In this document: positions 7,967-35,291 of the stretch, one piece after another | How the letters are laid out: each line of letters starts with the position of its first letter | How positions within the stretch are numbered: position 1 is the stretch's first letter | From: a virus | Taxonomy: Duplodnaviria; Caudoviricetes | DNA length: 64,000 nt | IMG/VR virus record: IMGVR_UViG_3300030330_004772 | Coordinates: 1 to 64,000 of that record | Strand: one strand, 5' to 3' | Notes under the pieces: generated by a model | The model's input: the letters and a program-made list of their open reading frames with translations, nothing else | Databases searched by the model: none | What the model was told of the DNA's origin: nothing | Position numbers and translations under genes: made by a program

Positions 7967-9568
7967 ATGAAATCATTAACTGAAGAACAGAAACGTATGA
8001 GAGAACTTATGGGATTTACCTATAAGGATAATTCACATGATATATTATCGGAACAAAATATGGATTTACTTTTAGAGGGTAAATTAAAAGGTAGAGGTGA
8101 TACAAGAACAGGTATTGCGAATTTTACTGCTTATAGTCAGGAAGTTGCATACTTTAAAAATATAAAGATGTTCGATGATTTTAGAAGAGGTCAAAGATTT
8201 GAAATTACTAGCCATAGGGATAATACTGCAGGACCTACACAACAAAATATGATAATTGATCCCCCAAAACCTAAACCTGAGCCTATTGACGTAATAGAAG
8301 AAGAACCAATTAGTATTAATATACCATTTAGTGTAGATGATCCATTTCAATTTGATGATGATGTGTTATATACTGAAGCAGAAAATAAATTAAATAAATT
8401 TATTTCTGATGTTAACAATTTAAGAGAAAATAAATTATATGACTCAAAAGTTATAGACGCATATTATGAATTTTTAAAATCTAAACCTATTTCAGTTTTT
8501 GGTTACGCATCTATAGACGCATTATCAAACTATAAAATAACTGGTAGTGACAACACATCTTGTGGTGGTAAAGAAAGGCTTAGACATGACTATAATAAGT
8601 GTTTATCTAAAGTTAGAGCAGAAGCAATTATAGAAAAATTAAAAGCTAGTGATGGTATATTAAGTGAATTAAATTATATTGCAAAAGGAATGGGTGAAAC
8701 TAATAAATTTAGTGGTAAAAAATGGAATAATAATGTGGCAGATCCCACAACAGACAAAAATTCACCATTCACTACGAAAGATACTAAAAAAGATAGAAAA
8801 TTTAGTGTTGTTTTACCTACTTTCACATACGAAGAACCTGCACCGCCCACACCAGAACCCATTGATGATACATATCCAGGATGGGTAGAACCTAGAATTA
8901 CTCTATATAATCCTGAAGCATTAAAAGTGTTACATAGTGATCCAGACTACTCCCAAAGAGATGAAAGGGGACAATATAAGGATGAGAACATTCAGAATAT
9001 AAACACAATTTCTTTAATGGATAATAAGTGTATTACATTTGATGAAACAATAGAAAATAAACAACACCCACATAAATTAAAAGATGGTAGAGTGGTCTAC
9101 CCATTGAAGGGGGATTTGCGAATTATGTCTCCTGATGAATGTTACAAAAATAAATTTGATATAGGTTCTTTTTTAGGAATAGGTAAAAAAATTATTGGTT
9201 GTACTGTTGATCAAAACAGTAAAAATTTATTATTTAGAGAATCACAATTAGATCATGTCTTAGGTAAAGGCTGGATGGAAAAATATTTTTTCCCATTCTG
9301 GGTATTTGAGACGGGGAAATACCCAATGGAAATATCTAAAAAAGAAATAACCGTTTATGATAACTCTAATACGGCATATACATTTCCTTATAAATCAGAT
9401 AATTTATTATATGGTAATGTTTCTACACCAAAAAAATGGATTGCAAGACCCTTTGGAAGTAACCAAATCATTATAAATAATAGGGGATGGTATACCATTA
9501 AGAAACAAGAAAATTATTCAATACAAGACGATGGTAATAATGGTCAATTTCCATTTGGTGGGGGGTAA
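7967..9568 (+). CDS. Protein with degenerate OmpA/MotB C-terminal-like domain, MKSLTEEQKRMRELMG leader
   Basis: Start moved to ATG 7967. FQFDDDVL...GYAS...NKCLSKVRAEAI...AKGMGET...DRKF follows the OmpA_C pattern. Confidence 0.6.
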   Translation: MKSLTEEQKRMRELMGFTYKDNSHDILSEQNMDLLLEGKLKGRGDTRTGIANFTAYSQEVAYFKNIKMFDDFRRGQRFEITSHRDNTAGPTQQNMIIDPPKPKPEPIDVIEEEPISINIPFSVDDPFQFDDDVLYTEAENKLNKFISDVNNLRENKLYDSKVIDAYYEFLKSKPISVFGYASIDALSNYKITGSDNTSCGGKERLRHDYNKCLSKVRAEAIIEKLKASDGILSELNYIAKGMGETNKFSGKKWNNNVADPTTDKNSPFTTKDTKKDRKFSVVLPTFTYEEPAPPTPEPIDDTYPGWVEPRITLYNPEALKVLHSDPDYSQRDERGQYKDENIQNINTISLMDNKCITFDETIENKQHPHKLKDGRVVYPLKGDLRIMSPDECYKNKFDIGSFLGIGKKIIGCTVDQNSKNLLFRESQLDHVLGKGWMEKYFFPFWVFETGKYPMEISKKEITVYDNSNTAYTFPYKSDNLLYGNVSTPKKWIARPFGSNQIIINNRGWYTIKKQENYSIQDDGNNGQFPFGGG

Positions 9569-10204
9569 TTAATAAATAAAATTGATAAATGCCCAATGTT
9601 TGCCATGTGCATATCTAACACAACAGGCAACTTGACTTTTCATTTCCACTTTATCAACACCCCAAGTCCTATACTCATAGGTATCAAATAAATTAGATCT
9701 TTGTGTTCCTTTATGCATTGATGAACTCTCCCATATTTTAATCATATGTGATGCCATTTCTTGATACGTATCAAATTTCTTATTGGTTTTTAACCCATTC
9801 TCCATATAATGGAGATTATCAGGTATATCAAAACCGGTTTCATATTTTATATATACATCTTCACTAAAAGGTTTTTTATTTTTTAAATCATACCACCAGT
9901 CTACTCTATCCACATGATGTAGTCTATTTTGTCTAACATTTTCTTCGGTATTAGGTTTAGATATCAATTCATACACTCTGTCGGACCAGTATAATTTTCT
10001 TTTTTCTTTGTAGTTAGGTATATCTTTTAATACCTCAGATATTAAATCACCAGTAACATAATATTGGATAGTGTCTCTAAAGTGTTGGAATGTTTCAAAT
10101 AATACCTCTTCTGCTCTCTTACTATCAAAGTTATTATAGTCTATTGGTTGACTATAACTGTTTAAGGCTACTAATACTAATAATAATGTGATTAACTTTT
10201 TCAT
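9569..10204 (-). CDS. Secreted CAP/SCP-like domain protein
   Basis: ATG 10204; signal peptide MKKLITLLLVLVALNSYSQ; C-terminal IWESSSMHKG...VACCVRY resembles CAP W..S..H. Confidence 0.55.
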   Translation of the reverse strand: MKKLITLLLVLVALNSYSQPIDYNNFDSKRAEEVLFETFQHFRDTIQYYVTGDLISEVLKDIPNYKEKRKLYWSDRVYELISKPNTEENVRQNRLHHVDRVDWWYDLKNKKPFSEDVYIKYETGFDIPDNLHYMENGLKTNKKFDTYQEMASHMIKIWESSSMHKGTQRSNLFDTYEYRTWGVDKVEMKSQVACCVRYAHGKHWAFINFIY

Positions 10205-10236
10205 ATTGTTTGATTTATACAAATATAAGAAAAATA
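10169..10236. repeat. 68-bp perfect direct repeat, copy 1 (promoter -7 element, leader and first 12 codons of a signal peptide)
   Basis: Identical to 12162-12229 by base-by-base comparison. Confidence 0.9.
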
Positions 10237-10251
10237 ATCCTAATATCCAAA
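10220..10251 (-). promoter_or_regulatory. Bacteroidota-type sigma70 promoter (TTTG-N20-TATATTTG)
   Basis: Exact consensus with a 20-nt spacer upstream of ATG 10204. Confidence 0.75.
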
Positions 10252-10305
10252 CTATAATGTATTTTTTTTAGTATTATGTTATATTTATATAAAAATACGT
10301 CCACA

Positions 10306-11535
10306 ATGAAAAAAATAAAAACATTAAACGAAGAAATAAAAAGAATAAAATCCCTTTTTCACTATGAAGAAGGTTCTACTATTCTTGAAACTATAGACAT
10401 TTATGAACAAGATGAACAAAATGAACTAGGTTTATTAGGTCCCCCAAACTGCAATGTATCCGAAGAAATTAACCATATTGGTGAATTTAGTGCAACAAAA
10501 TCAGATGCAACTAAACCATTTACAGATTTTATAACTAAGATGAAGACACAAATTGATGGTAATGCAAAATTAAAGAAGTTGATTGATGAGGGTGGTAAAG
10601 TTTTTATTAGTGAATTAACTGTTATGGGTGGTGCTAGTAATCATTATAATAAAAAAGCAACTGCTGCAGATGTAGAAAATGATTATAAAACACCATACGC
10701 TGGTAATATTAAACAGGATTCAGGTTATAAAGCCAATCGTGGATATGCGAAAAGTAGGGCGTTGAATTTAGTAAATGCAATGGTTAAGAAATTACCTGAA
10801 ATGGGAGTTAAAGTAGCTGAGGAAGTATTAGAAAATGCCAAAAACAATATAGACGTTAAAGTTATCAACACAGGAGGTAAAAATGATAGTAGTAGTACTG
10901 CAAAAAATCCTGGTCAGATTGTTAAAATTTATATGAAAATTTGTGGTGAAGGTGGTGATCCAGATATTCTAAAGTGTTTTGAGTCTGCAACTATTAGGGT
11001 AGATTATGATAGTAATAGTCCTGATCAGACACATGTTTGTAATCATGCAGTTTATGATATTTACGCCAATGGGGTTAAATTAGAAAGAACCGATGGTGTG
11101 TCATATGCTAGTTTAAATAATGATTATAGACAATCGACAAATTTTAAACCACAAAAAATATCAAATGATGGAAACAATAAGGGTGGTGCTTATGTTTATA
11201 ACGAATTTAAATTAACTATGGATGGTGTAAACAAAGAATTTTTTAATGAGGAAAATTTATATAAATATAATGGTGGTTTAGTTGTTAGTGCTAAATGTGT
11301 GAGGACAAGTCACGGTTCATGGGCAAATAACAGTGATTGTCACGAATGGGTGGGAGACATTAAATTATCGACTTCAGACGGGGTAGAAACAGTAGAAGTA
11401 GGACAAACTGATCTTTCAGGAACTGGATTAAAATTTAGTACACCTAATAATTTTGACGCGATAGTACCACTTGCAGGATTTGAGGCTTGTAAAGATTTGG
11501 CAAATAACAATGATAAACCAGTGGGGGATCAATAA
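10306..11535 (+). CDS. Protein with highly degenerate OmpA-like segment, MKKIKTLNEEIKRIKSLF leader
   Basis: Start moved to ATG 10306, after ATATTTAT at 10281. MGGAS...NRGYAKSRALNL...GQIVKI segment; Cys/His-containing C-terminal domain. Confidence 0.55.
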   Translation: MKKIKTLNEEIKRIKSLFHYEEGSTILETIDIYEQDEQNELGLLGPPNCNVSEEINHIGEFSATKSDATKPFTDFITKMKTQIDGNAKLKKLIDEGGKVFISELTVMGGASNHYNKKATAADVENDYKTPYAGNIKQDSGYKANRGYAKSRALNLVNAMVKKLPEMGVKVAEEVLENAKNNIDVKVINTGGKNDSSSTAKNPGQIVKIYMKICGEGGDPDILKCFESATIRVDYDSNSPDQTHVCNHAVYDIYANGVKLERTDGVSYASLNNDYRQSTNFKPQKISNDGNNKGGAYVYNEFKLTMDGVNKEFFNEENLYKYNGGLVVSAKCVRTSHGSWANNSDCHEWVGDIKLSTSDGVETVEVGQTDLSGTGLKFSTPNNFDAIVPLAGFEACKDLANNNDKPVGDQ

Positions 11536-12197
11536 TTATAGTGTATCTTGATTATTGCTTTATCTAATTCACTTAATTCAGATAAATCGTTATAGTGTTC
11601 ATAAAATATACTATTTTTATAATCGTATGAATCAGCTATAAGACCAAAACATTGGGTTATCTCCTCATACATCACATGTTTAGTTCTTTTTTGTGATTCA
11701 GTATTTTCTAAATTAATAAACGCTTCGGCTTGATAAATATAACCACTCCAACCAGGAACCCAATTCAAACCGTTACATAAATGATAATAATTTTTAATAG
11801 TTCTATTACCACTATATTCCATATAACCTTCACCAGAACCGAAATAAACCAATATGTCACAACCTTTTCTTTCGGAAACTAATTTCACCTCAATAGAATC
11901 TAATAATTCATTCATTGTCTTTACGTATTGAGTAATATCATTCATAATACTATCAGAAACATCTCCCACAATAAAAATATCTACATCGTGTAACCATTTT
12001 TTGGGTCTTACTCTTTTGGTTGGGTATTTAAAAGAACTCCTATAATTTGTAATTTGATAATAATAGTGTAATACTGAATCAGGATATTCGTAATTAGTTT
12101 TAACCCTTAAACGTTCTATAATAGAATCTGGATAAGTTTTCTGTGAATACCCATTTAGGGTTACTAATACTAATAATAATGTGATTAACTTTTTCAT
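11529..12197 (-). CDS. Secreted DUF2927-like metallopeptidase-fold protein
   Basis: ATG 12197; signal peptide MKKLITLLLVLVTLNGYSQ; YEEITQCFGLIAD...SIF...LSELDKAII motif. Confidence 0.65.
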   Translation of the reverse strand: MKKLITLLLVLVTLNGYSQKTYPDSIIERLRVKTNYEYPDSVLHYYYQITNYRSSFKYPTKRVRPKKWLHDVDIFIVGDVSDSIMNDITQYVKTMNELLDSIEVKLVSERKGCDILVYFGSGEGYMEYSGNRTIKNYYHLCNGLNWVPGWSGYIYQAEAFINLENTESQKRTKHVMYEEITQCFGLIADSYDYKNSIFYEHYNDLSELSELDKAIIKIHYNY

Positions 12198-12260: not shown

Positions 12261-14729
12261 TTATATAACCTTAACGTCTATCTTTTCTTTTACCTTACTA
12301 TATGACACCATAATAGTTTGTCCTTCTTTAATATTATCTTTTAATATTTCTTCAGATATTGGGTCTTCAATGTATTTTTGTATTGCCCTATTAAGTGGTC
12401 TAGCACCGTATTCTTCATCATAACCTATATCACTTAGGAAGTCTTTGGCGGATTTTAATATTTTCAAACCAAAACCTAATTCTTTAATACGTTGTGTTAT
12501 ACTAACAACTTCTAAATCTACAATCTTTTTAATTTCATCTGATTTAAGTGAATTAAATATTACCACATCATCTAGTCTATTTAAAAATTCTGGTGGGAAA
12601 TGTTTCTTTAATTCTTTATTTAGAAAATTAGACTTCTCTTGATCTTTATTTTTCTCTAAACTTTTTGTACTGAAACCAACACCGCTACCGAACTCTTGTA
12701 GTTTTTTAATTCCTACATTTGATGTCATAATAACCATACAGTTTTTAAAGTTAACTTTTCTACCTAAACTATCTGTTAATTGTCCATCATCCAACAATTG
12801 TAATAAAACATTGTAGATATCTTTATGTGCTTTCTCAATCTCATCAAATAGAATTATTGAATATGGTTTTCTTCTTACTTTTTCTGTAAGTTGTCCACCT
12901 TCTTCATGACCTACATATCCCGGAGGTGCACCTACCATTCTAGATAATGCGTGTTTCTCTTGATATTCTGACATATCAATTCTTATTAGTGAATCCTCAT
13001 CACCAAACATATATTGTGCAAGTTTTTTGGCTAAGTGTGTTTTACCTGTACCTGTAGGTCCTAAGAACATAAATGTACCAATAGGTTTTTTAGGGTTTCT
13101 GATACCCACTCTATTTCTTCTTAATGATTTAGCAATTTTAACTACCGCATCATTTTGTCCTATAACACTACCTTTCATTTCTTTTTCCATCCCTAACAAT
13201 CTCTTACCTTCATCATTGGTAAGTCTTTTTAGTGGTATACCAGTCATAGTAGCAACTACTTCACTTACATCTTCCGGATTAATTACAGTTCTCTTTTTAT
13301 CTAAACTATTTTTCCACTCTTCTTTTTTAGCGTCTAGTTTATCTATAACCTGTCTTTCCTTATCACGTAGTTTTGCTGCCTCTTCATATTTTTGACTTCT
13401 CACTACTCTATTTTTTTCCTCTTTAATGGATATGATCTCTTGCTCTAAATCACTAATAATTTTAGGTGGTTTTGCATTAACTTGAGATCTAGCACCAACC
13501 TCATCCATAATATCAATCGCTTTATCAGGAAATTCTCTATCTGTAACATAACGATCCGCCAGTTTAACACATTGAATTATAGTATCTTCTAAATAAGTAA
13601 CTTTATGGTACTTTTCATATGAAGATTTTATTTTCTCTAAAATTTCTATGGTTTCATTTATTGAAGGAGGTTCAATTACTACCTGTTGAAATCTTCTTGT
13701 TAATGCACCATCTTTTTCAATATGTTCTCTAAACTCATCTAGTGTAGTTGCACCTATTATCTGTATATCTCCTCTGGATAAAGCAGGTTTTAAAACATTT
13801 GCAGCATCCATTGAACCGGATGCATTACCTGCACCCACTAAAGTATGTAATTCATCGATAAATAAAATAATATTATCTGTATCCACTAATTCATCTACCA
13901 AACCTTTTATTCGTTCTTCAAACTGACCTCTATATTTAGTACCAGCAACTAATGAAGTTAAATCTAAAGAAATTAATCTTTTATCTAATAATGTTCTTGG
14001 TGCATCACCCTCATTTATTTTTAATGCTAACCCCTCAATAACTGTAGTTTTACCAACTCCTGGATCACCAATTAAAACAGGATTATTTTTTTTCTTTCTA
14101 GACAATATTTGTGCAACTCTCTGAATTACATCATCCCTACCAATTACAGGATCAATTTTACCTTCTGACGCTTTTTTAGTTACATCCACAGAAAAGTTAT
14201 CTAATATAGGTGTATTAGAATTTTTGTTTTTCTTTTTTGGTGGTCTATTACTAAACATATTTTCTTCTTCATCCATAGAATCAAAAGAATTATCGATAAG
14301 ATGTTTTTTAACTGTTTTATTATATTCTTTATAATTTGCTCCCATTTTCTCCAATATTTTACTTATTTTATTTTTTTCTTTAAGTATAGATAACATTATA
14401 TGTGCAGTATTAAGATATAGCTCTTTTAATTTATCACATTCTATTTCCGCTTCTGCAATAATTTTTTTAGTGTACTCAGACATAGGTAATAACGAAACAT
14501 TTATAACACTATCATCTTCAGTTGGGGAATATACTATTTTCTCAACTTTACTATGAAATTTATTTATATCTACACCTAACTCTATTAGATACTTAATTGC
14601 TTCGTTATCATAATCATTAATTAGTGCAATAACTATGTGTTCAATATTTATTTCCATATCACCATATAGTTTAGCTTCCTCAATAGATTTATTTATGATT
14701 TTTTTTACTTTTGGTTGTACTTTTTTCAT
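12261..14729 (-). CDS. clpC: ClpC-type AAA+ unfoldase (Clp_N, two AAA modules, UVR middle domain)
   Basis: Walker A GDPGVGKT and GPTGTGKT; Walker B FIDELH and FDEIEK; UVR-like SQKYEEAAKLRDKE; ClpP-docking-like GVGF loop. Confidence 0.92.
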   Translation of the reverse strand: MKKVQPKVKKIINKSIEEAKLYGDMEINIEHIVIALINDYDNEAIKYLIELGVDINKFHSKVEKIVYSPTEDDSVINVSLLPMSEYTKKIIAEAEIECDKLKELYLNTAHIMLSILKEKNKISKILEKMGANYKEYNKTVKKHLIDNSFDSMDEEENMFSNRPPKKKNKNSNTPILDNFSVDVTKKASEGKIDPVIGRDDVIQRVAQILSRKKKNNPVLIGDPGVGKTTVIEGLALKINEGDAPRTLLDKRLISLDLTSLVAGTKYRGQFEERIKGLVDELVDTDNIILFIDELHTLVGAGNASGSMDAANVLKPALSRGDIQIIGATTLDEFREHIEKDGALTRRFQQVVIEPPSINETIEILEKIKSSYEKYHKVTYLEDTIIQCVKLADRYVTDREFPDKAIDIMDEVGARSQVNAKPPKIISDLEQEIISIKEEKNRVVRSQKYEEAAKLRDKERQVIDKLDAKKEEWKNSLDKKRTVINPEDVSEVVATMTGIPLKRLTNDEGKRLLGMEKEMKGSVIGQNDAVVKIAKSLRRNRVGIRNPKKPIGTFMFLGPTGTGKTHLAKKLAQYMFGDEDSLIRIDMSEYQEKHALSRMVGAPPGYVGHEEGGQLTEKVRRKPYSIILFDEIEKAHKDIYNVLLQLLDDGQLTDSLGRKVNFKNCMVIMTSNVGIKKLQEFGSGVGFSTKSLEKNKDQEKSNFLNKELKKHFPPEFLNRLDDVVIFNSLKSDEIKKIVDLEVVSITQRIKELGFGLKILKSAKDFLSDIGYDEEYGARPLNRAIQKYIEDPISEEILKDNIKEGQTIMVSYSKVKEKIDVKVI

Positions 14730-15793: not shown

Positions 15794-16252
15794 ATGTATA
15801 ATAGAAATTTAAACGATTTTATAAAAGAATTTATGAATGATGATTTTTTCGGTAGAAGTTATGAAATAAGTATACCAAGAATCAGAACTAATAATCTTAA
15901 AACAAGAGATTATAGTGATAACACACCATCTACTAACGTATATGAGGATGAATGGTCATATAGATATGAATTATCAACACCAGGATTTACCAAAAAGGAT
16001 TTAACTATTAAAATAGAAGAAAATATTTTAGAAGTTAAAGGTGAGAGAAAAACTGAAAATAAAAAAGACAAAGGTGAATATATTTCTAAAGAATATCATA
16101 CCTCTAAATTTTTTAGATCATTTAATCTACCAGAAAATGTTGTATTAGATGAAGTACACGCAAAAGTTGAAAATGGTATTACTATTTTGTTTTTACCTAA
16201 AGTAACACCAACCAAAAAGAAAAGTGGAAGTAGAACTGTAGATATCGCTTAA
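15794..16252 (+). CDS. Hsp20/alpha-crystallin small heat-shock protein
   Basis: ELSTPGFTKKDLTI...LEVKGER...FFRSFNLPENV...AKVENGITILFLPK. Confidence 0.93.
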   Translation: MYNRNLNDFIKEFMNDDFFGRSYEISIPRIRTNNLKTRDYSDNTPSTNVYEDEWSYRYELSTPGFTKKDLTIKIEENILEVKGERKTENKKDKGEYISKEYHTSKFFRSFNLPENVVLDEVHAKVENGITILFLPKVTPTKKKSGSRTVDIA

Positions 16253-18933: not shown

Positions 18934-20637
18934 ATGAAAAATTTTGTAAATCCAAAAAAAATAAAAGGTCAAGACAAATTAGATAGAATTAAAGATCTAA
19001 TGGGTAAAATGAGTACCCTAAATGAGAGCACTTCACTTTCAGAAATAGAAAATGTGAAAAAAGGTGCGAATGGAGTAATCTATGGGATAATAAGAGAAAA
19101 TCATAGTTATTTTATTAAAACTACTGAAAAAACTTCTGGTACATTAGTTGCAGAAGATTTTAATTATATCGGTGGTTTACAAAACAAAAATATTGAGAAA
19201 TATGGTTCTTATGCTGAAGCATTAAAACAATTGAATTTAAAATTTGATATGCTGAATGAATCTTTTGGTATTAAATCTAATACTAATTTGTTTGAGTCTG
19301 ATGCGGTAGAAGTAAAAGAAGCAAATGCTAGTGGAGTTGTAGTTAAAGAAGAACCTGAAGTTATTGAAGATCAAAAAACGGTAATTAAAGTAGATGCCCC
19401 CAAGTCAGAGCCGGCACCAGTAGAAGATGAAGTAGGTGGTGAAGATCCATTTGCTGACGAAGAAGGTGGTGAAGATCCATTTGCTGATGAAGAAGGTGGA
19501 GAGGAAGAAATATCGATGGATGTAGAAGAAGAAGGTGAAGAAGATGGAGACGGATATACTAAAAAAATTCAAAAACTAACTGGTAAAATCGGTCAGATGT
19601 TAAGAGATAAAGATGAACCAGATGCGGAATTAGATAAATACGTTATTAATTCTATAGTATCTGCAATTGATTGGGAGGAAATTCCTGATGAAGATGTTGA
19701 AGACATTATTGCTAAAATTGAGGGTGAAGATGAAGAAGATGGTGAATTAGAAGGTGGTGATGAAGTAGGTGGTGAAGATCCATTTGCTGACGAAGAAGGT
19801 GGTGAAGATCCATTTGCTGACGAAGAAGGTGGTGAAGAAGAATTAGCAGAATCTGAAGAAATTAAAGAAGAAAAAGAGACAATTAATATTTCTAAAAAAC
19901 AAATGGAAATGTTAAAAAAAGATGGTAAGTGTGATTGTGGTGATGTAACTCTTAAATTAGATGAATCTGATGATGAACTAGAAGAAGGAAATAAATTTAG
20001 TGGTGAATTAGCTAAAGCTAAAAAAGAAGGTAAAGATGAATTCGAAGTAGATGGTAAAACATATAAAGTAAAAGAATCTAGAAAATTTTCTAAAAAACAA
20101 TTAATGGAAAATTTTTTAAAAAAAAACATTAATGAGTCTTTAAACAAAATTCTTAAAGAGAATGAATTAGTTTGTGAAGTATGTGGTGAAATGCATGAAG
20201 GTGATTGTCATGTCGATGAAGATCTAGATATTACAAATCAAACTTCAGAATTAGCGGGTGACGATGTAGGTGTAGTACACGAAGAAAATATGTCTGTAGT
20301 AGATGCAATTGCTACAGGACAAAATTACTTACAAGCGTCTGGAGATTTAGATAGAGATGGTGATCAAATACCAAATAGATTAGATATGGATAGTAATATG
20401 GATGGTGACTTAGATCACCCAACTTTTGATGATGAGGAATTTATAGAAATAGATTTTGATTCATTAATGGGTAATTCACCAGCACCAACTAAAGAACCAG
20501 GAATTGCGCCACCATCAACTAGACCGGGTAAAAAGAAACCAAGATGGAAAAAAATACCTAGACCAGAAGTTAACCCAAAACCAAAGGCAACAGATAGAAG
20601 AAAATTTCATTTAGGTAGAAAAGGTATGTATAGATAA
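18934..20637 (+). CDS. Acidic, repeat-rich putative prohead core/internal protein
   Basis: Many (I/L)xE sites; GGEDPFADEE repeats; DLDRDGDQIPNRLDMD Ca-binding-like motif; Pro/Lys-rich C-terminus. Confidence 0.6.
   Translation: MKNFVNPKKIKGQDKLDRIKDLMGKMSTLNESTSLSEIENVKKGANGVIYGIIRENHSYFIKTTEKTSGTLVAEDFNYIGGLQNKNIEKYGSYAEALKQLNLKFDMLNESFGIKSNTNLFESDAVEVKEANASGVVVKEEPEVIEDQKTVIKVDAPKSEPAPVEDEVGGEDPFADEEGGEDPFADEEGGEEEISMDVEEEGEEDGDGYTKKIQKLTGKIGQMLRDKDEPDAELDKYVINSIVSAIDWEEIPDEDVEDIIAKIEGEDEEDGELEGGDEVGGEDPFADEEGGEDPFADEEGGEEELAESEEIKEEKETINISKKQMEMLKKDGKCDCGDVTLKLDESDDELEEGNKFSGELAKAKKEGKDEFEVDGKTYKVKESRKFSKKQLMENFLKKNINESLNKILKENELVCEVCGEMHEGDCHVDEDLDITNQTSELAGDDVGVVHEENMSVVDAIATGQNYLQASGDLDRDGDQIPNRLDMDSNMDGDLDHPTFDDEEFIEIDFDSLMGNSPAPTKEPGIAPPSTRPGKKKPRWKKIPRPEVNPKPKATDRRKFHLGRKGMYR
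19426..19842 (+). repeat. Duplicated coding block (19426-19509 and 19759-19842), each with two 30-bp GGEDPFADEE units
   Basis: gaagatccatttgctga(c/t)gaagaaggtgg(t/a) at 19441, 19471, 19774 and 19804. Confidence 0.85.
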
Positions 20638-22143: not shown

Positions 22144-23571
22144 ATGAAAAAGGTAAAAATTAAAATAGACTTAGATAAAATTACTAAAAAAGTAATTAAA
22201 GAACACCAAATGTTAAAAGGTGAGTTAAAAAGAATTGAAAAACTTAATGAAGGTATAGAATATGACCCTAATCACCCAGAAAGAATGAATCCTAATTTAG
22301 AAGATAAATTAAGAAGTGGTGAACATACCTTTGGTAGAAATAAGGGTTTACCTGCGACAGGTACTAATCAAAACTTTTCAGAAAAATTAGCAAGTTCTCG
22401 TTTTAAAGATATTATTAATAAAGTCAAAAGGTATCACGGTATTCAACAAATCGATCCTCAAATGATGATGCAGATGATGATGATTATGCAACAAGTTGCA
22501 CAAATAGAGTCACAACACAAAGATGCATTAGAAAGATTAGCAGTAGAAATTGTAAGTGAGGAATTTGATATTCCAGATGATATGTTAGATGCGGAATTAT
22601 TACCTCCGGGTTCACCATTAGATTTAGATCAAGATGAAGGTGGGGAAGAAGAAGAACAGGAAGAGTTTCAGTCTAAGAGTGCTGAACGAATGGAGGAATT
22701 AGAAATTGAGGTAGATAAAAGAAATGTAATTAATGCATTAATGCAGGGAGCAGCCAAAAAAGGACACTATATCTTCCATATGGTTGCAGATGAGTTAGAC
22801 AGTATTGATCCTAGATTAATGAGTTTATATGGTAAACTAATGTCTTTAGCTGATTTCCAATATTGGGTAATACCTGATCAAGCAATGGGTGGACAAATAG
22901 GTGGAACAGAAAAAATTAAATGGGAAAAACCTAAAGATGAAGAAGGTAATGAACAAGAGGATGAAGAAGAAGAACCAGTGGTAGAAGCTAAAGCTTGGAT
23001 ATTCCCATTATTAGTACATGAACTTATTAAAGGTGCTATGGAATTAGCCGCATCCAATTGGGGGGAAGGTCATTTAGATTTTGAAGAACAGAAACATGTT
23101 ATTGATAGAGCGGACACAATAGAGAATGAAATATGGGGAATGAGATTAGGTCCAGGTATGTGGGAAAAATTTGTAGCTTGTATAGATGATGATGATTACA
23201 AATTAAAACAATGGTTCTTTCATGAACTTACTAAGTTACCGGCACAACAATTTCATACCTTTATGAAAGAGATATTGTCTAATAGTGCAAAATGTAAAGA
23301 AGTGATTGCACACTTAAAAGAACTACACTTAGCAGACGAAGATGAAGAATTAGATGATTTAATTATTGGTGATGAAGGTAACTTTGAGGATGGTTTAGAT
23401 GACTTAATGGTTGACGCAGGTGTTGCACCACCACAAGATGAACCAAGTGAAGAAGTAGATGTAGAAGTTGATTATAGTGAAATGTCACCTAGAGAAATAC
23501 AAGATCTTATAGATGATGCATTAGATGCGGGTGATTTTGATACCGTAGGTATGTTATCTAAGTATTTATAA
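22144..23571 (+). CDS. Acidic hypothetical protein (putative internal head protein)
   Basis: 475 aa; N-terminal KKVIKE...KLNE; followed by a terminator. Confidence 0.75.
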   Translation: MKKVKIKIDLDKITKKVIKEHQMLKGELKRIEKLNEGIEYDPNHPERMNPNLEDKLRSGEHTFGRNKGLPATGTNQNFSEKLASSRFKDIINKVKRYHGIQQIDPQMMMQMMMIMQQVAQIESQHKDALERLAVEIVSEEFDIPDDMLDAELLPPGSPLDLDQDEGGEEEEQEEFQSKSAERMEELEIEVDKRNVINALMQGAAKKGHYIFHMVADELDSIDPRLMSLYGKLMSLADFQYWVIPDQAMGGQIGGTEKIKWEKPKDEEGNEQEDEEEEPVVEAKAWIFPLLVHELIKGAMELAASNWGEGHLDFEEQKHVIDRADTIENEIWGMRLGPGMWEKFVACIDDDDYKLKQWFFHELTKLPAQQFHTFMKEILSNSAKCKEVIAHLKELHLADEDEELDDLIIGDEGNFEDGLDDLMVDAGVAPPQDEPSEEVDVEVDYSEMSPREIQDLIDDALDAGDFDTVGMLSKYL

Positions 23572-27653: not shown

Positions 27654-29447
27654 ATGGATAGAGGTGAAAAATTAAAATTATATGCGAAGTGTTTAGGTGA
27701 TCCGATATATGCAATAGAAACATTTCTTAAAACTTATGACTTAACTCAAAAAGGGTTCGTTCCTTTTAAACTATTTCATAAACAAAAAGAAATAATTAGT
27801 TCATACGAAAAATACAATCGTAATATTGTAACTAAACCTAGACAGGCTGGTGTATCAACTACCACTGCAGCATATATTGCGGCAAAGATTGCATTTGGTG
27901 ATCCTAATAATCCATGGAAAGTACTAGTATTAGCAAATAAACAAACATTAGCACAAGAGTTCCTTAAAAAAATAAAAGATTTTCTAGATCAAATACCATC
28001 ATGGGTATGGGGAATAGATGAAGATGAATCTTATTTATCTATTGAATCTAAGGGACATATTAAAACTAAAGACACTCAATGTGAAGTAAAAGCGTTAGCA
28101 ACCTCTAAAGATGCATTAAGGGGGTATACACCAACATTTTTAGTTATGGATGAAGCGGCATTTATCGATAAAGGAGCAGAAGTATTTGGTGCCGCACTAA
28201 CTTCGTTAGGTACAGGTGGTAAAGTAACTTTAATTTCAACACCTAACGGACAAGATGCATTATACTATAAAACTTATGATGGTGCTAAACAAGGCGATAA
28301 TAACTTCAATATAATCGAAATGAGGTGGCATGAAGATATTAGATATAATAGGGGTTTAAAATGGTTAAGAGGTGAAGACGAAGTTATTGAATGTGAAACG
28401 GTAGGTAGAGAAACATTGAGATGGGAATACAGTGGTAAAACATATGAAACTAATAGTATTGATATAAGCGACTATAATGTAATGGTAAAAGATGGGTGGA
28501 AAGGTTCTTCTCCGTGGTATGAAGAAATGTGTAGAGATATGAATGGGGACAAAAAACAAATAGCACAGGAATTAGACGTATCCTTTGTTTCTTCAGGAGG
28601 TAATGTAATAGATGAAGAATACATAGAGTTTCAAGAAAAAAATAATGTACAAGAACCAAAATATAAGGCAGAGATGGAAAAATCTATGTGGATATGGAAA
28701 GAACCTGAAGAAGGACATAAATATATTATGGGTGTAGATGTTTCTAGAGGAGATGGGAAAGATAGTTCTACTATTGTAATATTAGATTTTGAAAACTTAG
28801 AACAAGTTGCAGAATTTAAGTATAAATTACCTCCAGATCTATTGGCAGAAATAGTTTATAAGTATGGTAATTTATATAATGCATATACTGTTGTAGATAT
28901 TACAGGTGGTATGGGAGTTTCTACTGTAATGAAATTATTAGAGATGGGGTATGAACATTTACATTATGATGATCCTAAAAGTAGAAAATTAAGTGAAAAA
29001 TATGTTAAAACATTATATAAACAAGGTGATAAAGTACCTGGTTTTAATGTTGGTAGTAGTAGATTACAAATGGTTAGTGATTTAGAAGAACACATAAGAG
29101 AAAATAAAACAATAATTCGTTCTGTTAGGTTAATATCGGAATTAAAAACTTTTGTTTATAGAAATGGTAGACCTGATCATATGGATGGATATCATGATGA
29201 TATCATTATGGCATTGGCAATGCCATTATTCGTAGTTCAAACAACTTTTAAAAAACTAAAACAGGCAGAAAATCAAACAAGGGCAATGTTAGATAGTTGG
29301 ACAACTGTTAGTAATAGTAGTAATAAAATTACCCCTAAACCTATTCATACTAACCCATTTTATAGTAATACGCCCACTTATCATCCTAAACAAAACCATA
29401 ATAATACAGATAGTGGTGATTATAATTGGTTATTTGGTATAAAGTAA
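27654..29447 (+). CDS. terL: Terminase large subunit (T4 gp17-like)
   Basis: KPRQAGVST, FLVMDEAAF, ISTPNG, MGVDVSRG, HDDIIMALA. Confidence 0.95.
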   Translation: MDRGEKLKLYAKCLGDPIYAIETFLKTYDLTQKGFVPFKLFHKQKEIISSYEKYNRNIVTKPRQAGVSTTTAAYIAAKIAFGDPNNPWKVLVLANKQTLAQEFLKKIKDFLDQIPSWVWGIDEDESYLSIESKGHIKTKDTQCEVKALATSKDALRGYTPTFLVMDEAAFIDKGAEVFGAALTSLGTGGKVTLISTPNGQDALYYKTYDGAKQGDNNFNIIEMRWHEDIRYNRGLKWLRGEDEVIECETVGRETLRWEYSGKTYETNSIDISDYNVMVKDGWKGSSPWYEEMCRDMNGDKKQIAQELDVSFVSSGGNVIDEEYIEFQEKNNVQEPKYKAEMEKSMWIWKEPEEGHKYIMGVDVSRGDGKDSSTIVILDFENLEQVAEFKYKLPPDLLAEIVYKYGNLYNAYTVVDITGGMGVSTVMKLLEMGYEHLHYDDPKSRKLSEKYVKTLYKQGDKVPGFNVGSSRLQMVSDLEEHIRENKTIIRSVRLISELKTFVYRNGRPDHMDGYHDDIIMALAMPLFVVQTTFKKLKQAENQTRAMLDSWTTVSNSSNKITPKPIHTNPFYSNTPTYHPKQNHNNTDSGDYNWLFGIK

Positions 29448-29499: not shown

Positions 29500-31479
29500 A
29501 TGGCAAAAAAAACAATATTTCAACAATTAGGTGACTTATTTGGTCCGGAAAGAAAACAGACTACTAATAAATCTAGATATTCTTTAAATGATAAAGAATT
29601 ATTAAAAACTAAATCACAAGAAGAATATAACTATGAGTTATTACAAAAACAACAAGACGCTTATTTATCTAATCAATGGAAGAAGGTTGATAACGAAATA
29701 TATCAACATTCTATTTATTACGAAACTACGAGATTAGCTTCTTATGCTGATTTTGAAGGTATGGAATTTTTTCCTGAAATTGCGGCAGCATTAGATATTT
29801 TTATGGAAGAATCTACTACACCTAATGGTGAAGGGAGAATATTAAATATATTCTCTGAAAGTAAAAGAGTAAGAAGAATATTACAAGATTTATTTTTTAA
29901 CAGATTAGATATACACACTAATTTACCTATGTGGGTAAGAAATACATGTAAATATGGTGATAATTTTTTATATATGTCGATAGATAGTGAAAATGGAGTA
30001 CAAAGTGTAAAACAATTACCTAATATTGAAATTACGAGAAAAGAAAATGATGGTTTTGGTGAAAATGCAAATACTAGTAGTGATGATAAGTTTAACCCTG
30101 TTAAGTTTGTTTGGGGACAAAAAGATATGGAATTTAATGCGTGGCAAGTTGCCCATTTTAGGTTATTGGGAGATGATAGAAGATTACCTTATGGAACATC
30201 AATTTTAGAAAAGGCAAGAAGAATATGGAAACAATTACTTCTTTCTGAGGATGCAATGTTAATATATAGAGTTACTAGAGCACCTGAAAGAAGAATATTT
30301 AAAATATTTGTTGGTAATATAGATGAGAAAGATGTTCCTGCATATGTTAATAAAATTGCAGATAACTTCAAAAGAAGCCCGGTAATTGATCAACAAACCG
30401 GTCAAATAGATACACGTTACAATCAAATGGCACAAGATCAAGATTACTTTGTACCAGTTAGAGATCCCAACGCCCCTAGTCCAATAGATACTCTTCCAGG
30501 CGCAACTAACCTTTCAGAAATTGCGGATATACAGTTTTTACAAAAGAAATTATTTACTGCCCTTAGAGTACCTAAACCATTTTTAGGTTTTGAGGAGGTT
30601 GCAGGTGAAGGTAAAAACTTAGCTTTACAGGATATTAGATTCGCTAGAACAATCAATAGAGTTCAACAAGCAATTATACAAGAATTAAATAAAATTGCAA
30701 TTATACATTTATATATCTTAGGATTAGAAGACGATTTAGAAAATTTCACTTTAACACTTAATAATCCTTCTACACAGGCTGAGATGTTGAAGATAGAACA
30801 GAATCAGCTCAAAGTAACTCTTTATAAAGATGCAGTATCTGATGCAGGTAATGGTTTTGGTGCGTATTCTATGACTAGAGCTAAAAGAGATATTTTAGGG
30901 ATGTCTGAAGAAGAAATTAGAGTCGATTTAGAACAACAAAGAATGGAAAAAGCTGCAAGTGCAGAAATGGAACAAACCTCAACAATAATTAAGAAAACTG
31001 GTTTATTCGATAGAGTAGATACCTTATATGGTGATCCTTTAGGTATGAGCAATGGTGATGCAGGTGGAGACGCAGGTGGAGACGCAGGTGGTGATGCAGG
31101 TGGAGACGCAGGTGGAGACGCAGGTGGATTTGGTGATATTGGAGGTGGATTTGGTGATATTGGAGGTGCAGCAGATAGTGCAGCAGATAGTGCAGCAGAT
31201 AGTGCAGCAGGTGGTGAGGCAACTGAAGCGGAAGCAGGTGCGGCAACAGAGTCCACAGAAAAAAAGGAAAATTTACTTTTAGAACAAGAAAAAAATAAAT
31301 TAAATGAAAAAACTAAAAAATATCAAAATCTATATTTAAAAAGATTAATAGAAAGTATAGATTCAGATGATAGAGTTTTTAAAGTGGAGGGTATAGATGA
31401 AGAGGTAGATACTATAAACTCTAAAATAAGTAAAATGTCTGCAGATATAGATAATATTTTAAAGGAAGAAGAAAAATAA
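29500..31479 (+). CDS. Portal protein (T4 gp20-like) with long low-complexity C-terminal tail
   Basis: IYRVTRAPERRIFKIFVGN, QDYFVPVRD, IDTLPGATNL, KKLFTALRVP, DIRFARTI. Confidence 0.93.
   Translation: MAKKTIFQQLGDLFGPERKQTTNKSRYSLNDKELLKTKSQEEYNYELLQKQQDAYLSNQWKKVDNEIYQHSIYYETTRLASYADFEGMEFFPEIAAALDIFMEESTTPNGEGRILNIFSESKRVRRILQDLFFNRLDIHTNLPMWVRNTCKYGDNFLYMSIDSENGVQSVKQLPNIEITRKENDGFGENANTSSDDKFNPVKFVWGQKDMEFNAWQVAHFRLLGDDRRLPYGTSILEKARRIWKQLLLSEDAMLIYRVTRAPERRIFKIFVGNIDEKDVPAYVNKIADNFKRSPVIDQQTGQIDTRYNQMAQDQDYFVPVRDPNAPSPIDTLPGATNLSEIADIQFLQKKLFTALRVPKPFLGFEEVAGEGKNLALQDIRFARTINRVQQAIIQELNKIAIIHLYILGLEDDLENFTLTLNNPSTQAEMLKIEQNQLKVTLYKDAVSDAGNGFGAYSMTRAKRDILGMSEEEIRVDLEQQRMEKAASAEMEQTSTIIKKTGLFDRVDTLYGDPLGMSNGDAGGDAGGDAGGDAGGDAGGDAGGFGDIGGGFGDIGGAADSAADSAADSAAGGEATEAEAGAATESTEKKENLLLEQEKNKLNEKTKKYQNLYLKRLIESIDSDDRVFKVEGIDEEVDTINSKISKMSADIDNILKEEEK
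31054..31203 (+). repeat. Coding tandem repeats in the portal tail: 6x12 bp (GDAG), 2x21 bp (GFGDIGG), 3x12 bp (AADS)
   Basis: Units counted directly in the sequence. Confidence 0.9.
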
Positions 31480-32664: not shown

Positions 32665-33099
32665 ATGAAACGAGGAAAAGAATTAAAATTAAATTTAAAC
32701 CCAAATTACAAAATAAAATTGGGTACGGTAGATAATAAAAATCCAAAAACAATATATATAAATTTAACCGCTTGGGGTCAATTAAAAAAATATGATATAG
32801 ATTTAAATTACGATAATGTCATTAATAAGTTAAGAACAAAAATTAAACATAAAATTAATAGTTATAATGTAGATGCATTTCATAATGGTAAATATATAGT
32901 AGATTTAGATATGAGATCTTCAGGTATTAAACCTACTAAAAGAAGTTTTATGTCTTGTGAAATCACACTATTCCAAAGAAATATAACACCAGTTAATAAT
33001 CCCACTTTAGTACATACAACTTCAGAATTAATAAATGATGTAATTAAAAATTGTTTAGATAAGAGTGAACATTTCACTTTTTATAAAACTAAAAATTAA
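32665..33099 (+). CDS. Hypothetical protein
   Basis: 144-aa basic ORF between the portal region and the protease. Confidence 0.75.
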   Translation: MKRGKELKLNLNPNYKIKLGTVDNKNPKTIYINLTAWGQLKKYDIDLNYDNVINKLRTKIKHKINSYNVDAFHNGKYIVDLDMRSSGIKPTKRSFMSCEITLFQRNITPVNNPTLVHTTSELINDVIKNCLDKSEHFTFYKTKN

Positions 33100-33146
33100 A
33101 GTTTTTTATAATAAAGATATATTTATTACTAAAGAATATCGTTATT

Positions 33147-33833
33147 ATGGAAATATTAAAAAACAATGACTTAAATAAAAAAGGTATACTAGTAGAATAT
33201 GATGCTGGTTATATATCACCTAAAGATAACAGACACTTTATTAACGAAATAAATAAACTAACTAAAGGAGAGCAGATTATTGAAGATCCTTTAGTTGTTT
33301 ATGCAGTTATGCAAAAATATGGTGTTGAGAATAGAAACGGTAGAGTATATCCTGAAGATATTCTAAAAAGAGAGGGTGAAAATTATACAAAACTAATAAA
33401 AGAAAAAAGAGCAATGGGTGAAGCGGATCATCCAGAATCTTCTATAGTAGCAATAAGTAGGATATCCCACAATGTCATAGATTTATGGTGGGAAGGAAAT
33501 GTAATGATGGGGAAATTAGAAATAATTATGTCACCAGGATTTATAACACAAGGAATTATTTCATGCGAAGGAGACCAAGTGGCGAATTTATTACGTAAAG
33601 GTTTAAAGATTGGTGTATCATCTAGAGGTGTAGGTTCACTAAAAAAAGAAAGCGGCAAAAACGTAGTACAAGATGACTTCGAATTAATTTGTTGGGACGT
33701 TGTTACGTCCCCGTCAACTCCCGGTTCTTGGATATATAATGAAGAGCCTAGTAGAGAACAACAAATGTCAGAATCTAAAAAATCTGATAAGACTTTATTA
33801 GTAGACGGATTAAATAATTTTTTGTCTGATTAA
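33147..33833 (+). CDS. Prohead maturation protease (T4 gp21-like)
   Basis: NRNGRVYP, MGEADHP (catalytic His), GVSSRGVGSL (catalytic Ser), DVVTSPSTP. Confidence 0.93.
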   Translation: MEILKNNDLNKKGILVEYDAGYISPKDNRHFINEINKLTKGEQIIEDPLVVYAVMQKYGVENRNGRVYPEDILKREGENYTKLIKEKRAMGEADHPESSIVAISRISHNVIDLWWEGNVMMGKLEIIMSPGFITQGIISCEGDQVANLLRKGLKIGVSSRGVGSLKKESGKNVVQDDFELICWDVVTSPSTPGSWIYNEEPSREQQMSESKKSDKTLLVDGLNNFLSD

Positions 33834-33947
33834 TTTCATAATAAAGTAACACTTTTATCATTTTTTGCATATTTATAAAAAAAACAGCGCACTTAGTGCC
33901 TGCATTTTTTATTATAATAACAAAATGTAAAAAAAATAAAATTTACA

Positions 33948-35291
33948 ATGGCGACAAAAAGAAAATCAATCATCGAAGAGGCTTTGTTAGAAGCAAAGTC
34001 TTTAGAGGATGCCTTAAAAGCCAACACGAAAGAAATGCTTGCCGCTCATATGAAGCAAGAAATTGAGAACATCGTAGAGTCATCTTTAAAAGAACAAGAT
34101 GAAGAAGAAATTGAAATCGATGTGGAAGGATCCGATGAAGAAATGGAAGAAATGCCAGCGTTAGAAGCTGGAGACGATTCAGAAGGGGATGCTGATGAAG
34201 CAGACTCAGAAGAGTCAGAATTAATGGATTTAGATGTCGATCTTGACGCTTTAGCGGGAGACGATGATGAAGATGTTGAATTAGATGTTGTTGAATTACC
34301 CTCAGATCTAGATATGGGTGATGAAGAAGAATTAGATTTAACTGGTGCATCAGACGAAGAAGTAATCGCAGTATTTAAGAAAATGAGCGATGAAGACGAA
34401 GTTGAGGTTGTTAAAGACACAGAAGGAATCCACTTAACAGATAACGAAACCGGTGCAGAATACTACATTAAAGAAGGTGACGAACATTATGAAGAATCTT
34501 ACGACAAAATGGATGAAGAGAAAGATTGTATGAAAGAGGAAGCAGGATGTGGAAAACGTTACGAAGAAGGACATGATCATATGGACGAAGAAGTAATGTA
34601 TGAGATCGAACTAGATGAAATGGATGACATGGAAGAAGGTTATGACATGGAAGAAGGTTATGATATGGAAGAAGGTTATGATATGGAAGAAGGTCACGAT
34701 ATGGAAGAAGGTCACGATATGGAAGAAGGTCACGATATGGAAGAAACTTTAGATTTAGATGAAGAAGAAACTATCGAAGAAGATAAACTTAAAAGACACC
34801 AATCTAATGGATATAATAAATATCATGGTGCCAAAGCAGGATCAGATCAAGTATCAGAATCTAAAAGAAGAACACCTAAAAATGTAAAAAAAGTAACGGA
34901 ATCAAAAATTATGAAAGAATACAAAGAGTTAAAATCCAAAAACGAAGAGTATAAAGGAGCACTTAAAGTATTCAAGAATAAATTAAACGAAGTTGCTTTA
35001 TTCAATACAAATTTAGCATACGTTAATAGATTATTTACTGAACATTCTACTACTAAATCAGAAAAGATGGAAATCTTAAAAAGATTTGATAGTGCGGAAT
35101 CGATTAAAGAATCTAAAACTATCTATAAATCAGTAAAAAGTGAATTAGATTCTAAATCACCAATTACTGAATCTGTTGAGAATAAGGTTAACAAGACTGT
35201 TAAGTCTTCTAAATCGGATTTGAATGAATCTACGGCATACGTAGATCCACAAATAACTGCGATTAAAGATTTGATGAAAAGAATATCATAA
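33948..35291 (+). CDS. Prohead scaffold/core protein (T4 gp22-like position)
   Basis: Acidic, lies between protease and MCP, many (I/L)xE sites, C-terminal coiled coil. Confidence 0.85.
   Translation: MATKRKSIIEEALLEAKSLEDALKANTKEMLAAHMKQEIENIVESSLKEQDEEEIEIDVEGSDEEMEEMPALEAGDDSEGDADEADSEESELMDLDVDLDALAGDDDEDVELDVVELPSDLDMGDEEELDLTGASDEEVIAVFKKMSDEDEVEVVKDTEGIHLTDNETGAEYYIKEGDEHYEESYDKMDEEKDCMKEEAGCGKRYEEGHDHMDEEVMYEIELDEMDDMEEGYDMEEGYDMEEGYDMEEGHDMEEGHDMEEGHDMEETLDLDEEETIEEDKLKRHQSNGYNKYHGAKAGSDQVSESKRRTPKNVKKVTESKIMKEYKELKSKNEEYKGALKVFKNKLNEVALFNTNLAYVNRLFTEHSTTKSEKMEILKRFDSAESIKESKTIYKSVKSELDSKSPITESVENKVNKTVKSSKSDLNESTAYVDPQITAIKDLMKRIS
34626..34745 (+). repeat. 18-bp coding tandem repeat (DMEEG[Y/H] x6 plus a partial unit)
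   Basis: ga(c/t)atggaagaaggt(tat/cac) units counted directly. Confidence 0.9.

What the first reader, a model, noticed from the sequence alone, without database searches (positions are those of the whole stretch)
7967..35291. Class C leaders resemble the C-terminal helix of the scaffold
Seen: the scaffold ends ...DPQITAIKDLMKRIS. N-termini read KLDRIKDLMG (18934), EQKRMRELMG (7967) and EIKRIKSLF (10306). Established: in several HK97-fold phages the scaffold C-terminal helix binds the coat protein. Inference: these cargos dock on the inner capsid surface by copying the scaffold's binding helix, which gives a concrete mechanism for one leader class.
Basis: inference. Interest (0 to 1): 0.7.

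Follow-up and report, generated by a model that had tools for sequence, protein, structure and literature searches.

The report
Cargo leaders copying the scaffold tail
In this uncultured T4-like giant phage of marine Bacteroidota, three late proteins begin with a clip-off helix that resembles the conserved last helix of the head-scaffolding protein, which suggests, without any binding test so far, that cargo enters the capsid by borrowing the scaffold's own docking peptide.

Summary
The quoted strings are all present at the quoted coordinates. The window is a fragment of a large T4-like phage with portal, S77 protease, acidic scaffold and gp23-type capsid genes.

The scaffold tail (IKDLM + two basic residues + I/L + S) is invariant in about 35 relatives. 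It is the local form of a tail motif, R-phi-[KQ]-x-L-[AM]-G-phi, that ends scaffolds of distant T4-like phages (immuto, RM378, Mel-JY01, two megaphages).

Within this genome alone the resemblance is graded. It is clear for 18934, weak for 7967 and marginal for 10306. The three leader types are linked to each other by variants and by a leader swap on homologous bodies.

Independent support comes from Flavobacterium phage immuto. Its tail reads RWQKLAGII and two unrelated proteins start with RMQKLAGII (0 of 300 shuffles reach this score). Tail and leaders therefore change together between clades.

AlphaFold2 gives both tail and leader as short helices on floppy linkers that hold a protease-type site.

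This scan has already reported the same mimicry, in RMQKLAG form, on other DNA. I found no published description.

The parts
33948..35291 (+). Head scaffolding protein (gp22 analogue), 447 aa, acidic
   Evidence: It lies between the S77 protease and the gp23-type capsid gene. It shares a conserved helical block with the ORF at the same position in immuto, LR756508 and Mel-JY01. It has no Pfam or PHROG hit, so the role is inferred from position and composition.
35247..35288 (+). Scaffold tail helix PQITAIKDLMKRIS (residues 434-447)
   Evidence: P434, Q435, I439, K440, D441, L442 and M443 are invariant in 25 aligned relatives. AlphaFold2 gives a helix at 120-132 of the 133-residue C-terminal domain, after a disordered linker.
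35220..35228 (+). Predicted protease site L-N-E|S, 20 residues before the scaffold end
   Evidence: L425 and E427 are invariant. The site lies in the linker with pLDDT below 50. It matches the L/I-x-E rule of T4 gp21 (PMC9026906). Cleavage itself is inferred.
18934..20637 (+). Acidic 567-aa protein with the leader closest to the scaffold tail
   Evidence: R18, L22, M23, G24, N30 and E31 are invariant in 10 homologues. AlphaFold2 gives helix 12-29, a floppy linker, then a folded domain at 36-110.
18967..19026 (+). 18934 leader helix (GQDKLDRIKDLMGKMST) and predicted cut site LNE|S
   Evidence: The core RIKDLMGK is identical to the scaffold tail of relative L045.
7967..9568 (+). 533-aa protein, weak OmpA-like match, with a portable leader of about 29 residues
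   Evidence: One search gives OmpA at E 0.0077, below Pfam's cutoff. The same leader sits on at least 5 unrelated body clusters in metagenomes.
7967..8053 (+). 7967 leader MKSLTEEQKRMRELMGFTYKDNSHDILSE, ending in predicted cut site LSE|Q
   Evidence: The core RMRELMG recurs in the L057 homologue of the 18934 protein.
10306..11535 (+). 409-aa protein of unknown family with leader MKKIKTLNEEIKRIKSLFHYEEGSTILE
   Evidence: Homologue P0040 carries the 7967-type leader on this type of body. An ATATTTAT box at 10281-10288 supports the start at 10306.
33147..33833 (+). Prohead serine protease (Peptidase_S77, gp21-like)
   Evidence: Pfam E 3.3e-23 and phrog_207 E 1.8e-42.
35328..37076 (+). Major capsid protein (gp23 family), the candidate receptor
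   Evidence: Pfam Gp23 E 4.4e-72. There are 4,289 relatives at E <= 0.001. Binding was not tested.

Best explanation
The class C leaders are removable capsid-targeting propeptides whose helix is a copy of the scaffold protein's conserved C-terminal anchor helix. The shared pattern is phi-x-x-phi-[KQR]-x-L-[MA]-x-x-phi.

During prohead assembly the scaffold tail and the leaders use the same docking site inside the prohead. That site is most likely on the inner face or N-terminal arm of the gp23-type capsid protein, and possibly on the scaffold core. Unrelated cargo is carried in this way.

The S77 protease then cuts at the phi-x-E site that lies between helix and body in both cases. This frees the scaffold for removal and frees the cargo inside the head.

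What is shown: the motif, its conservation, its portability, the joint change of tail and leaders between clades, the helix-linker-site architecture and the presence of the protease. What is inferred: packaging, cleavage, a shared receptor and its identity.
For: - The scaffold tail is invariant in about 35 relatives whose scaffolds are otherwise only 52-76% identical.
- The same tail motif ends scaffolds of immuto, LR756508, LR756511, Mel-JY01 and RM378.
- In immuto two unrelated proteins start MKKQILSEQF[RK]RMQ[KF]LAGIITE, against a tail of SEQVSRWQKLAGIIK. Their scores are 49 and 42, the null mean is 27.8, and 0 of 300 shuffles reach 49.
- The L-A-G state (immuto) and the L-M state (this clade) are shared by tail and leaders in each clade.
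- L045 has the intermediate tail RIKDLMGK, identical to the 18934 leader core.
- The leader types are linked: RMRELMG occurs in a homologue of the 18934 protein, and there is a leader swap on a 10306-type body.
- The leader is portable, sitting on at least 5 body clusters.
- AlphaFold2 gives a helix, a floppy linker with the cut site, and then the body, for both the tail and the leader.
- A gp21-type protease is encoded here.
- The same upstream box precedes the head genes, 10306 and the 18616/18934 operon.
- Scaffold C-termini bind the capsid protein in P22 (PMC9965877) and in herpesviruses, where the protease cuts them off (PMC12474303).
Against: - Within this genome alone the tail-to-leader match is not significant (p about 0.09). 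The 7967 and 10306 leaders score weakly against tail profiles.
- The core pattern is a low-information amphipathic helix in a Lys-rich proteome.
- The joint change of tail and leaders rests on one or two evolutionary events.
- Mel-JY01 and RM378 have the tail but no leader copies. LR756508 and LR756511 are inconclusive.
- No proteomic, cleavage or binding data exist for any member.
- In T4, targeting peptides load proteins into the core before the shell forms, and those proteins co-purify with gp22 (PMC9026906).
- T4 copy numbers (about 580 gp22 plus more than 1,400 other core proteins, against 930 gp23; PMC9546572) argue against one capsid-protein site per cargo.
Confidence: 0.55

Rival explanations
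1. The leaders are capsid-targeting propeptides of the T4 kind, but their likeness to the scaffold tail is convergence of short basic amphipathic helices. Leader and tail then have different partners; for example, the leader binds the scaffold core while the tail binds the capsid protein.
For: The in-genome statistics are weak. T4 targeting peptides act on the core and bear no likeness to the gp22 tail (PMC9026906). Mel-JY01 and RM378 keep the tail without leader copies.
Against: Immuto shows 11 of 15 identical residues between tail and leader, beyond all 300 shuffles. The change from L-A-G to L-M is matched in tail and leaders. The L045 tail and the 18934 leader share eight residues in a row.
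Confidence: 0.25
2. The shared helix is not an address. It is a docking element for the S77 protease that steers cleavage to the neighbouring phi-x-E site. It occurs on the scaffold and on other substrates for that reason.
For: Every copy lies next to a predicted cut site. The few sequence determinants of T4 gp21 cleavage are an acknowledged puzzle (PMC9026906).
Against: The capsid protein and most other predicted substrates lack the helix. Scaffolds have many predicted sites but one tail. A strictly terminal position fits an anchor better than an exosite.
Confidence: 0.1
3. The leaders have nothing to do with the head. They could be, for example, an oligomerisation, localisation or export signal of late proteins.
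For: No virion data exist. The 7967 family is annotated OmpA-like by one source, which would also fit an envelope role.
Against: There is no hydrophobic signal-peptide core. Genuine signal peptides in the window look different (9569-10204 and 11529-12197). Protease-type sites bracket the leader. The leaders share an upstream box with the head genes.
Confidence: 0.05

Closest known systems
Phage T4 capsid targeting sequence (CTS) of internal proteins IPI-III and Alt (Mullaney and Black 1996, as reviewed in PMC9026906)
   Same: A short N-terminal peptide sits on unrelated proteins, is followed by an L/I-x-E site for a gp21-type protease, is portable between bodies, and occurs in a T4-type head module.
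   Different: The leader here is 25-30 residues long, not 10, and has no sequence likeness to MKTYQEFIAE. It resembles the phage's own scaffold tail, which is not the case in T4. Nothing here is shown by experiment.
P22 scaffolding protein gp8 C-terminal helix-turn-helix, and engineered cargo fusions to it (PMC9965877, PMC9962691)
   Same: A C-terminal helical element of the scaffold is tethered to the rest and docks on the inner capsid surface. Fusing it to foreign proteins loads them into the capsid, which is the engineered counterpart of what is proposed here.
   Different: In P22 there is no protease, the element has two helices, natural cargo is not known to copy it, and there is no sequence relation.
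Herpesvirus UL26 / UL26.5 (protease-scaffold and scaffold sharing one C-terminal capsid-binding tail, cut at the M site; PMC12474303)
   Same: A second protein enters the procapsid because it carries the scaffold's tail. The maturation protease cuts the tail off to release the scaffold.
   Different: There the sharing comes from nested in-frame genes and the tail stays C-terminal. Here the copies are N-terminal, on unrelated genes, and diverged.
Encapsulin cargo-loading peptides
   Same: A short terminal peptide on cargo binds the inner face of an HK97-fold shell (established knowledge; reviewed in PMC8229669).
   Different: Encapsulins have no scaffold and no proteolytic removal, the peptide is usually C-terminal and extended rather than helical, and they are not phages.
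Phage P1 DarA-Hdf bound to the inner capsid surface (PMC12810830)
   Same: Packaged anti-defence cargo sits on the inner face of the capsid shell of a myophage.
   Different: Folded proteins bind at penton-hexon junctions in the mature head. No scaffold-like peptide is involved.

Membership tests
T4-type capsid-targeting propeptide system | The same short N-terminal peptide on otherwise unrelated proteins | tested here: met
   The 7967-type leader of about 27 residues sits on at least 5 body clusters that are unrelated by BLAST. Three different bodies carry class C leaders in the window.
T4-type capsid-targeting propeptide system | Leader ends at a prohead-protease site (L/I-x-E) and the phage encodes a gp21-type protease | tested here: met
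   The sites LNE|S, LSE|Q and ILE|T follow the helices. A Peptidase_S77 gene lies at 33147-33833. This is evidence at sequence level only.
T4-type capsid-targeting propeptide system | Leader is sufficient for packaging and is removed in the head | not testable with these tools
   This needs virion proteomics or reporter fusions. I found no proteome for immuto or its relatives.
Scaffold C-terminal capsid-binding anchor (P22 gp8 / herpesvirus type) | Conserved helical element at the extreme C-terminus of the scaffold, tethered by a flexible linker | tested here: met
   Searches show conservation. One search shows a helix at 120-132 after a linker with pLDDT below 50.
Scaffold C-terminal capsid-binding anchor (P22 gp8 / herpesvirus type) | The element binds the major capsid protein | not testable with these tools
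The PDB holds no relative of the scaffold.
Scaffold C-terminal capsid-binding anchor (P22 gp8 / herpesvirus type) | Protease severs the anchor from the scaffold body (herpesvirus M-site logic) | tested here: inconclusive
   An invariant L-N-E-S lies 20 residues from the end. Equivalent phi-x-E sites precede the tail in immuto, LR756508, Mel-JY01 and RM378. Cleavage is not shown.
Scaffold-tail mimic leader | Leader matches the phage's own scaffold tail above chance | tested here: inconclusive
   In this genome 18934 matches (rank 1 or 5 of 22,516 positions), 7967 is weak and 10306 is marginal, and the BLOSUM test gives p about 0.09. In immuto the feature is clearly met (0 of 300 shuffles).
Scaffold-tail mimic leader | Tail and leaders change together between lineages | tested here: met
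   Tail and leaders read L-A-G in immuto and L-M in this clade, and L045 is intermediate. These amount to only one or two independent events.

The most novel reading that the evidence does not exclude
The scaffold's last helix is the general address for the prohead interior in a large, abundant group of T4-like phages of Bacteroidota and their relatives. Cargo, accessory core proteins such as the acidic 18934 protein and, in some lineages, the protease all carry copies. All bind one site on the capsid protein or core and are released by the same protease. This would identify the receptor logic of capsid-targeting sequences, which has been open since 1996, and would give a natural, programmable way to load proteins into phage heads.
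Probability: 0.35. Interest if true: 0.8.

Novelty: new variant of a known kind. Interest (0 to 1): 0.6.

Why it matters
How T4-type heads choose which proteins to package is known only as a phenomenon: a short N-terminal tag suffices, and its receptor is undefined (PMC9026906).

If the tag is a copy of the scaffold's own anchor helix, the receptor question becomes directly testable by peptide competition, tail deletion and prohead cryo-EM.

The cargo sets of very abundant marine phages could then be read from sequence. More than 7,800 scaffold relatives were scored at E <= 0.001.

It would also explain how new injected proteins are recruited, namely by acquiring a 25-30 residue module. Leader swaps are seen.

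Finally, it offers a natural design for loading proteins into phage capsids.

Tried and rejected
No binding test of any kind was therefore made.
- Pattern scans of viral contigs for relatives of the 7967 and 10306 proteins found nothing. Their relatives came from the protein database instead.
- The TARA contig that carries P0017 is not held, so its scaffold could not be read.
- Fine-scale joint change inside the clade was sought and not found. Genomes whose 18934-type leader reads RITDLMG still have the tail AIKDLMKRIS.
- Mel-JY01 and RM378 have no leader copies of their tails.
- In LR756508 the candidates MDKSRFQELAGVLSE and MKKRLQKLAGF exist, but their starts are uncertain and the BLOSUM test is null.
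- LR756511 shows only one KTLAG match, which is compatible with chance.
- The tails of T4 gp22 and cyanophage Syn1 gp22 are different, so the motif is not universal among T4-like phages.
- A PDB sequence search with the scaffold profile gave no hit.
- A Foldseek search with the 18934 N-terminal domain gave nothing below E 0.5.
- The likeness of the protease C-terminus to the tail (LLVDGLNNFLSD here) was considered and judged too generic. Only the L045 protease tail (SIDLMKKLS...) is suggestive.
- A recent DNA duplication as the source of the 18934 leader was rejected because the Leu codons differ and the shared codons are the common ones.
Full report
**What the window is.** The window covers the first 64 kb of a 74.7-kb IMG/VR virus record estimated to be 23% complete. 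Its G+C content is about 29%. It carries a T4-type head module:
- large terminase, 27654-29447;
- gp20-type portal, 29500-31479;
- Peptidase_S77 (gp21-type) prohead protease, 33147-33833;
- a 447-residue acidic protein, 33948-35291;
- a gp23-family major capsid protein, 35328-37076.

The acidic protein has no family hit. It occupies the gp22 position and shares a conserved helical block with the ORF at that position in Flavobacterium phage immuto, megaphage LR756508 and Microcystis phage Mel-JY01. I therefore accept it as the scaffold, by inference. Signal peptides of the Bacteroidota type and the nearest cultured relative (immuto) point to a Bacteroidota host.

**The observation.** Homologues start at the same methionines. 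The strength of the resemblance differs between the three leaders.
- The scaffold tail and the 18934 leader share IKDLM and the same hydrophobic spacing (positions 1, 4, 7, 8, 11).
- A BLOSUM62 scan of the tail against all N-termini puts 18934 first, but 9% of shuffled tails reach that score. 7967 and 10306 do not stand out.
- A profile built only from five foreign scaffold tails ranks 18934 5th, 7967 46th and 10306 268th of 22,516 positions. With all seven tails, 18934 is first by a wide margin.
- The pattern [IM][KR][DES]L[MF], written after the fact, occurs four times in 23,898 residues: the three leaders and the tail, all at termini. Shuffles give 0.29 on average.

**The tail is a conserved element.** In 33 IMG/VR relatives, and three more reached through other loci, the last residues read YVDPQI-x-AIKDLM-[KR]-[KR]-[IL]-S. 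The acidic middle of these scaffolds varies freely. A more distant relative (L045) ends RIKDLMGKIV.

The scaffolds of five distant T4-like lineages end as follows:
- immuto: SRWQKLAGIIK
- LR756508: SRMQKLADIS
- Mel-JY01: ERMKKLAGIVK
- RM378: ERIKRLAGL
- LR756511: TLKTLAGRKAK

The consensus is R-phi-[KQ]-x-L-[AM]-G-phi at the extreme C-terminus. T4 gp22 and cyanophage Syn1 gp22 end differently.

**The leaders are portable modules.**
- Homologues of the 18934 protein keep D-K-x-[DN]-R-[IM]-x-[DE]-L-M-G. One of them (L057) reads NRMRELMGQ, which is the 7967 core.
- The 7967 leader (MKSLTEEQKRMRELMGFTYKDNSHDILSE) recurs almost unchanged on at least five body clusters that BLAST does not connect. 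Diverged forms, such as LNEE-phi-x-[KR]-M-[KR]-x-L-M-x-F...NSHD-x-LSE, head the orthologues.
- 10306 orthologues carry TLNEEI-x-R-[IM]-K-S-L-F. One body of this family (P0040) carries the 7967-type leader instead.
- The three leader types are thus linked to each other. Through L045 and 18934 they are also linked to the tail.

**Independent support.** In the complete 160-kb immuto genome a loose pattern finds only the scaffold tail and an N-terminus. A full scan finds two unrelated proteins, gp187 and gp42, that begin MKKQILSEQF[RK]RMQ[KF]LAGIITE. The tail reads SEQVSRWQKLAGIIK. Their scores are 49 and 42 against a null of 27.8 +/- 3.1, and none of 300 shuffles reaches 49.

Tail and leaders therefore share L-A-G in immuto and L-M in the present clade. 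This is a joint change, though it rests on only one or two events. Mel-JY01 and RM378 have the tail without leader copies. LR756508 and LR756511 are inconclusive.

**Architecture.**
- For the scaffold C-terminal domain, AlphaFold2 gives three confident helices, a disordered stretch that contains the invariant L-N-E-S, and then the tail helix.
- For the 18934 N-terminus, it gives a helix over residues 12-29 at modest confidence, a floppy linker with L-N-E-S, and then a folded domain without a PDB match.
- In all copies, here and in the distant phages, a phi-x-E site of the kind cut by T4 gp21 (PMC9026906) lies between helix and body.
- The box ATATTTAT is enriched in the window: 43 matches against 27.6 expected. 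It precedes the terminase, portal, protease and scaffold genes, and also 10306 and the 18616/18934 operon.
- One neighbour with another leader class is a cell-wall hydrolase (Hydrolase_2). The 7967 family is weakly OmpA-like. Both fit proteins delivered to the host envelope.

**Mechanism.** The best reading is an anchor-and-release device. The helix holds scaffold and cargo at one site inside the prohead, and the protease cuts them loose.

The receptor is open. Scaffold C-termini bind the capsid protein in P22 (PMC9965877) and in herpesviruses, where the protease cuts the tail and itself rides in on the same tail (PMC12474303). This favours the capsid protein.

T4 data favour the core. Targeted proteins enter before the shell forms and co-purify with gp22 (PMC9026906). 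T4 also has far more core proteins than gp23 subunits (PMC9546572).

I put about 0.55 on a shared docking site, and about half of that on the capsid protein as the receptor.

**Comparison and novelty.** The system works like the T4 capsid-targeting sequence and meets its sequence-level criteria. It differs in length and sequence, and in copying the scaffold tail.

Literature searches found no description of such mimicry. The nearest ideas are the herpesvirus nested genes and the engineered P22 scaffold fusions.

Earlier notes of this scan, on other genomes, report the same mimicry in RMQKLAG, RLQQLAGI and RWxxLAG forms. I saw them after finding the immuto case, and I treat them as leads, not evidence.

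The present window adds three things: the diverged L-M form, the intermediate L045 tail, and the caution that in this clade only one of the three leaders matches its own scaffold tail convincingly.

Noticed in passing
window 12261-14729 (-), 15794-16252 (+), 9569-10204 (-), 11529-12197 (-): The phage encodes an 822-aa ClpB/ClpC-like double AAA+ chaperone and a small heat-shock protein (Hsp20 type). Around them lie two paralogous genes with near-identical Bacteroidota-type signal peptides; the orthologue of one is DUF2927 in a related contig. The whole block is syntenic in relatives.
   Followed up: partly
window 18934-20637: The 18934 protein is strongly acidic, has four copies of GGEDPFADEE and a very basic, Pro-rich C-terminus. 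It looks more like an accessory core protein (compare T4 gp67/gp68) than an enzyme cargo. Its N-terminal domain has no PDB fold match.
   Followed up: partly
locus L045 2761-3480 (protease) and 3968-5323 (scaffold): In this more distant relative the prohead protease ends ...SIDLMKKLSDYLGK. This contains DLMKKLS, close to the DLM-[KR]-[KR]-[IL]-S that ends the scaffolds of the main clade. The protease may carry the same address there.
   Followed up: no
proteins P0040 and P0044-P0058 (metagenomic relatives of window 10306-11535): Homologous bodies carry different leaders: the 7967 type, the TLNEEINRMKSLF type, and a third ITESEK-x-x-IR-x-LY type. Leaders are therefore exchanged between genes.
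   Followed up: partly
window 4793-5620: A protein with another leader class (MKVYLTEKQLKKLVINEE) contains a cell-wall hydrolase domain (Pfam Hydrolase_2, E 5.9e-11). It is a plausible packaged or injected lysin.
   Followed up: partly
window 58289-58825 (-) and 22144-23571 (+): Two further weak look-alikes of the motif exist. One is a C-terminal ...VEKIKELITYKSKI on a 178-aa protein among tail genes. The other is ELKRIEKLNEG at residues 27-37 of the 22144 protein. Neither is above background.
   Followed up: no
loci L013, L026, L028, L033 (minus strand, about 8 kb upstream of the scaffold): A small protein of about 130 aa in relatives ends ...[IVL]LRELFKEK + about 9 residues, which is a motif-like helix near a C-terminus. 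I saw no counterpart in this window.
   Followed up: no
window, 43 sites, e.g. 27631, 29465, 33119, 33869, 10281, 18591: The octamer ATATTTAT is enriched (43 against 27.6 expected; 0 of 100 shuffles reach 43). It lies 18-80 nt upstream of many starts, including the head genes, and is probably a late-promoter element.
   Followed up: partly
window 35328-37076: The capsid protein matches the Pfam Gp23 model in two stretches, the best covering residues 327-567. Most relatives likewise align in two stretches, N-terminal and C-terminal, so the middle of the protein looks lineage-specific.
   Followed up: no
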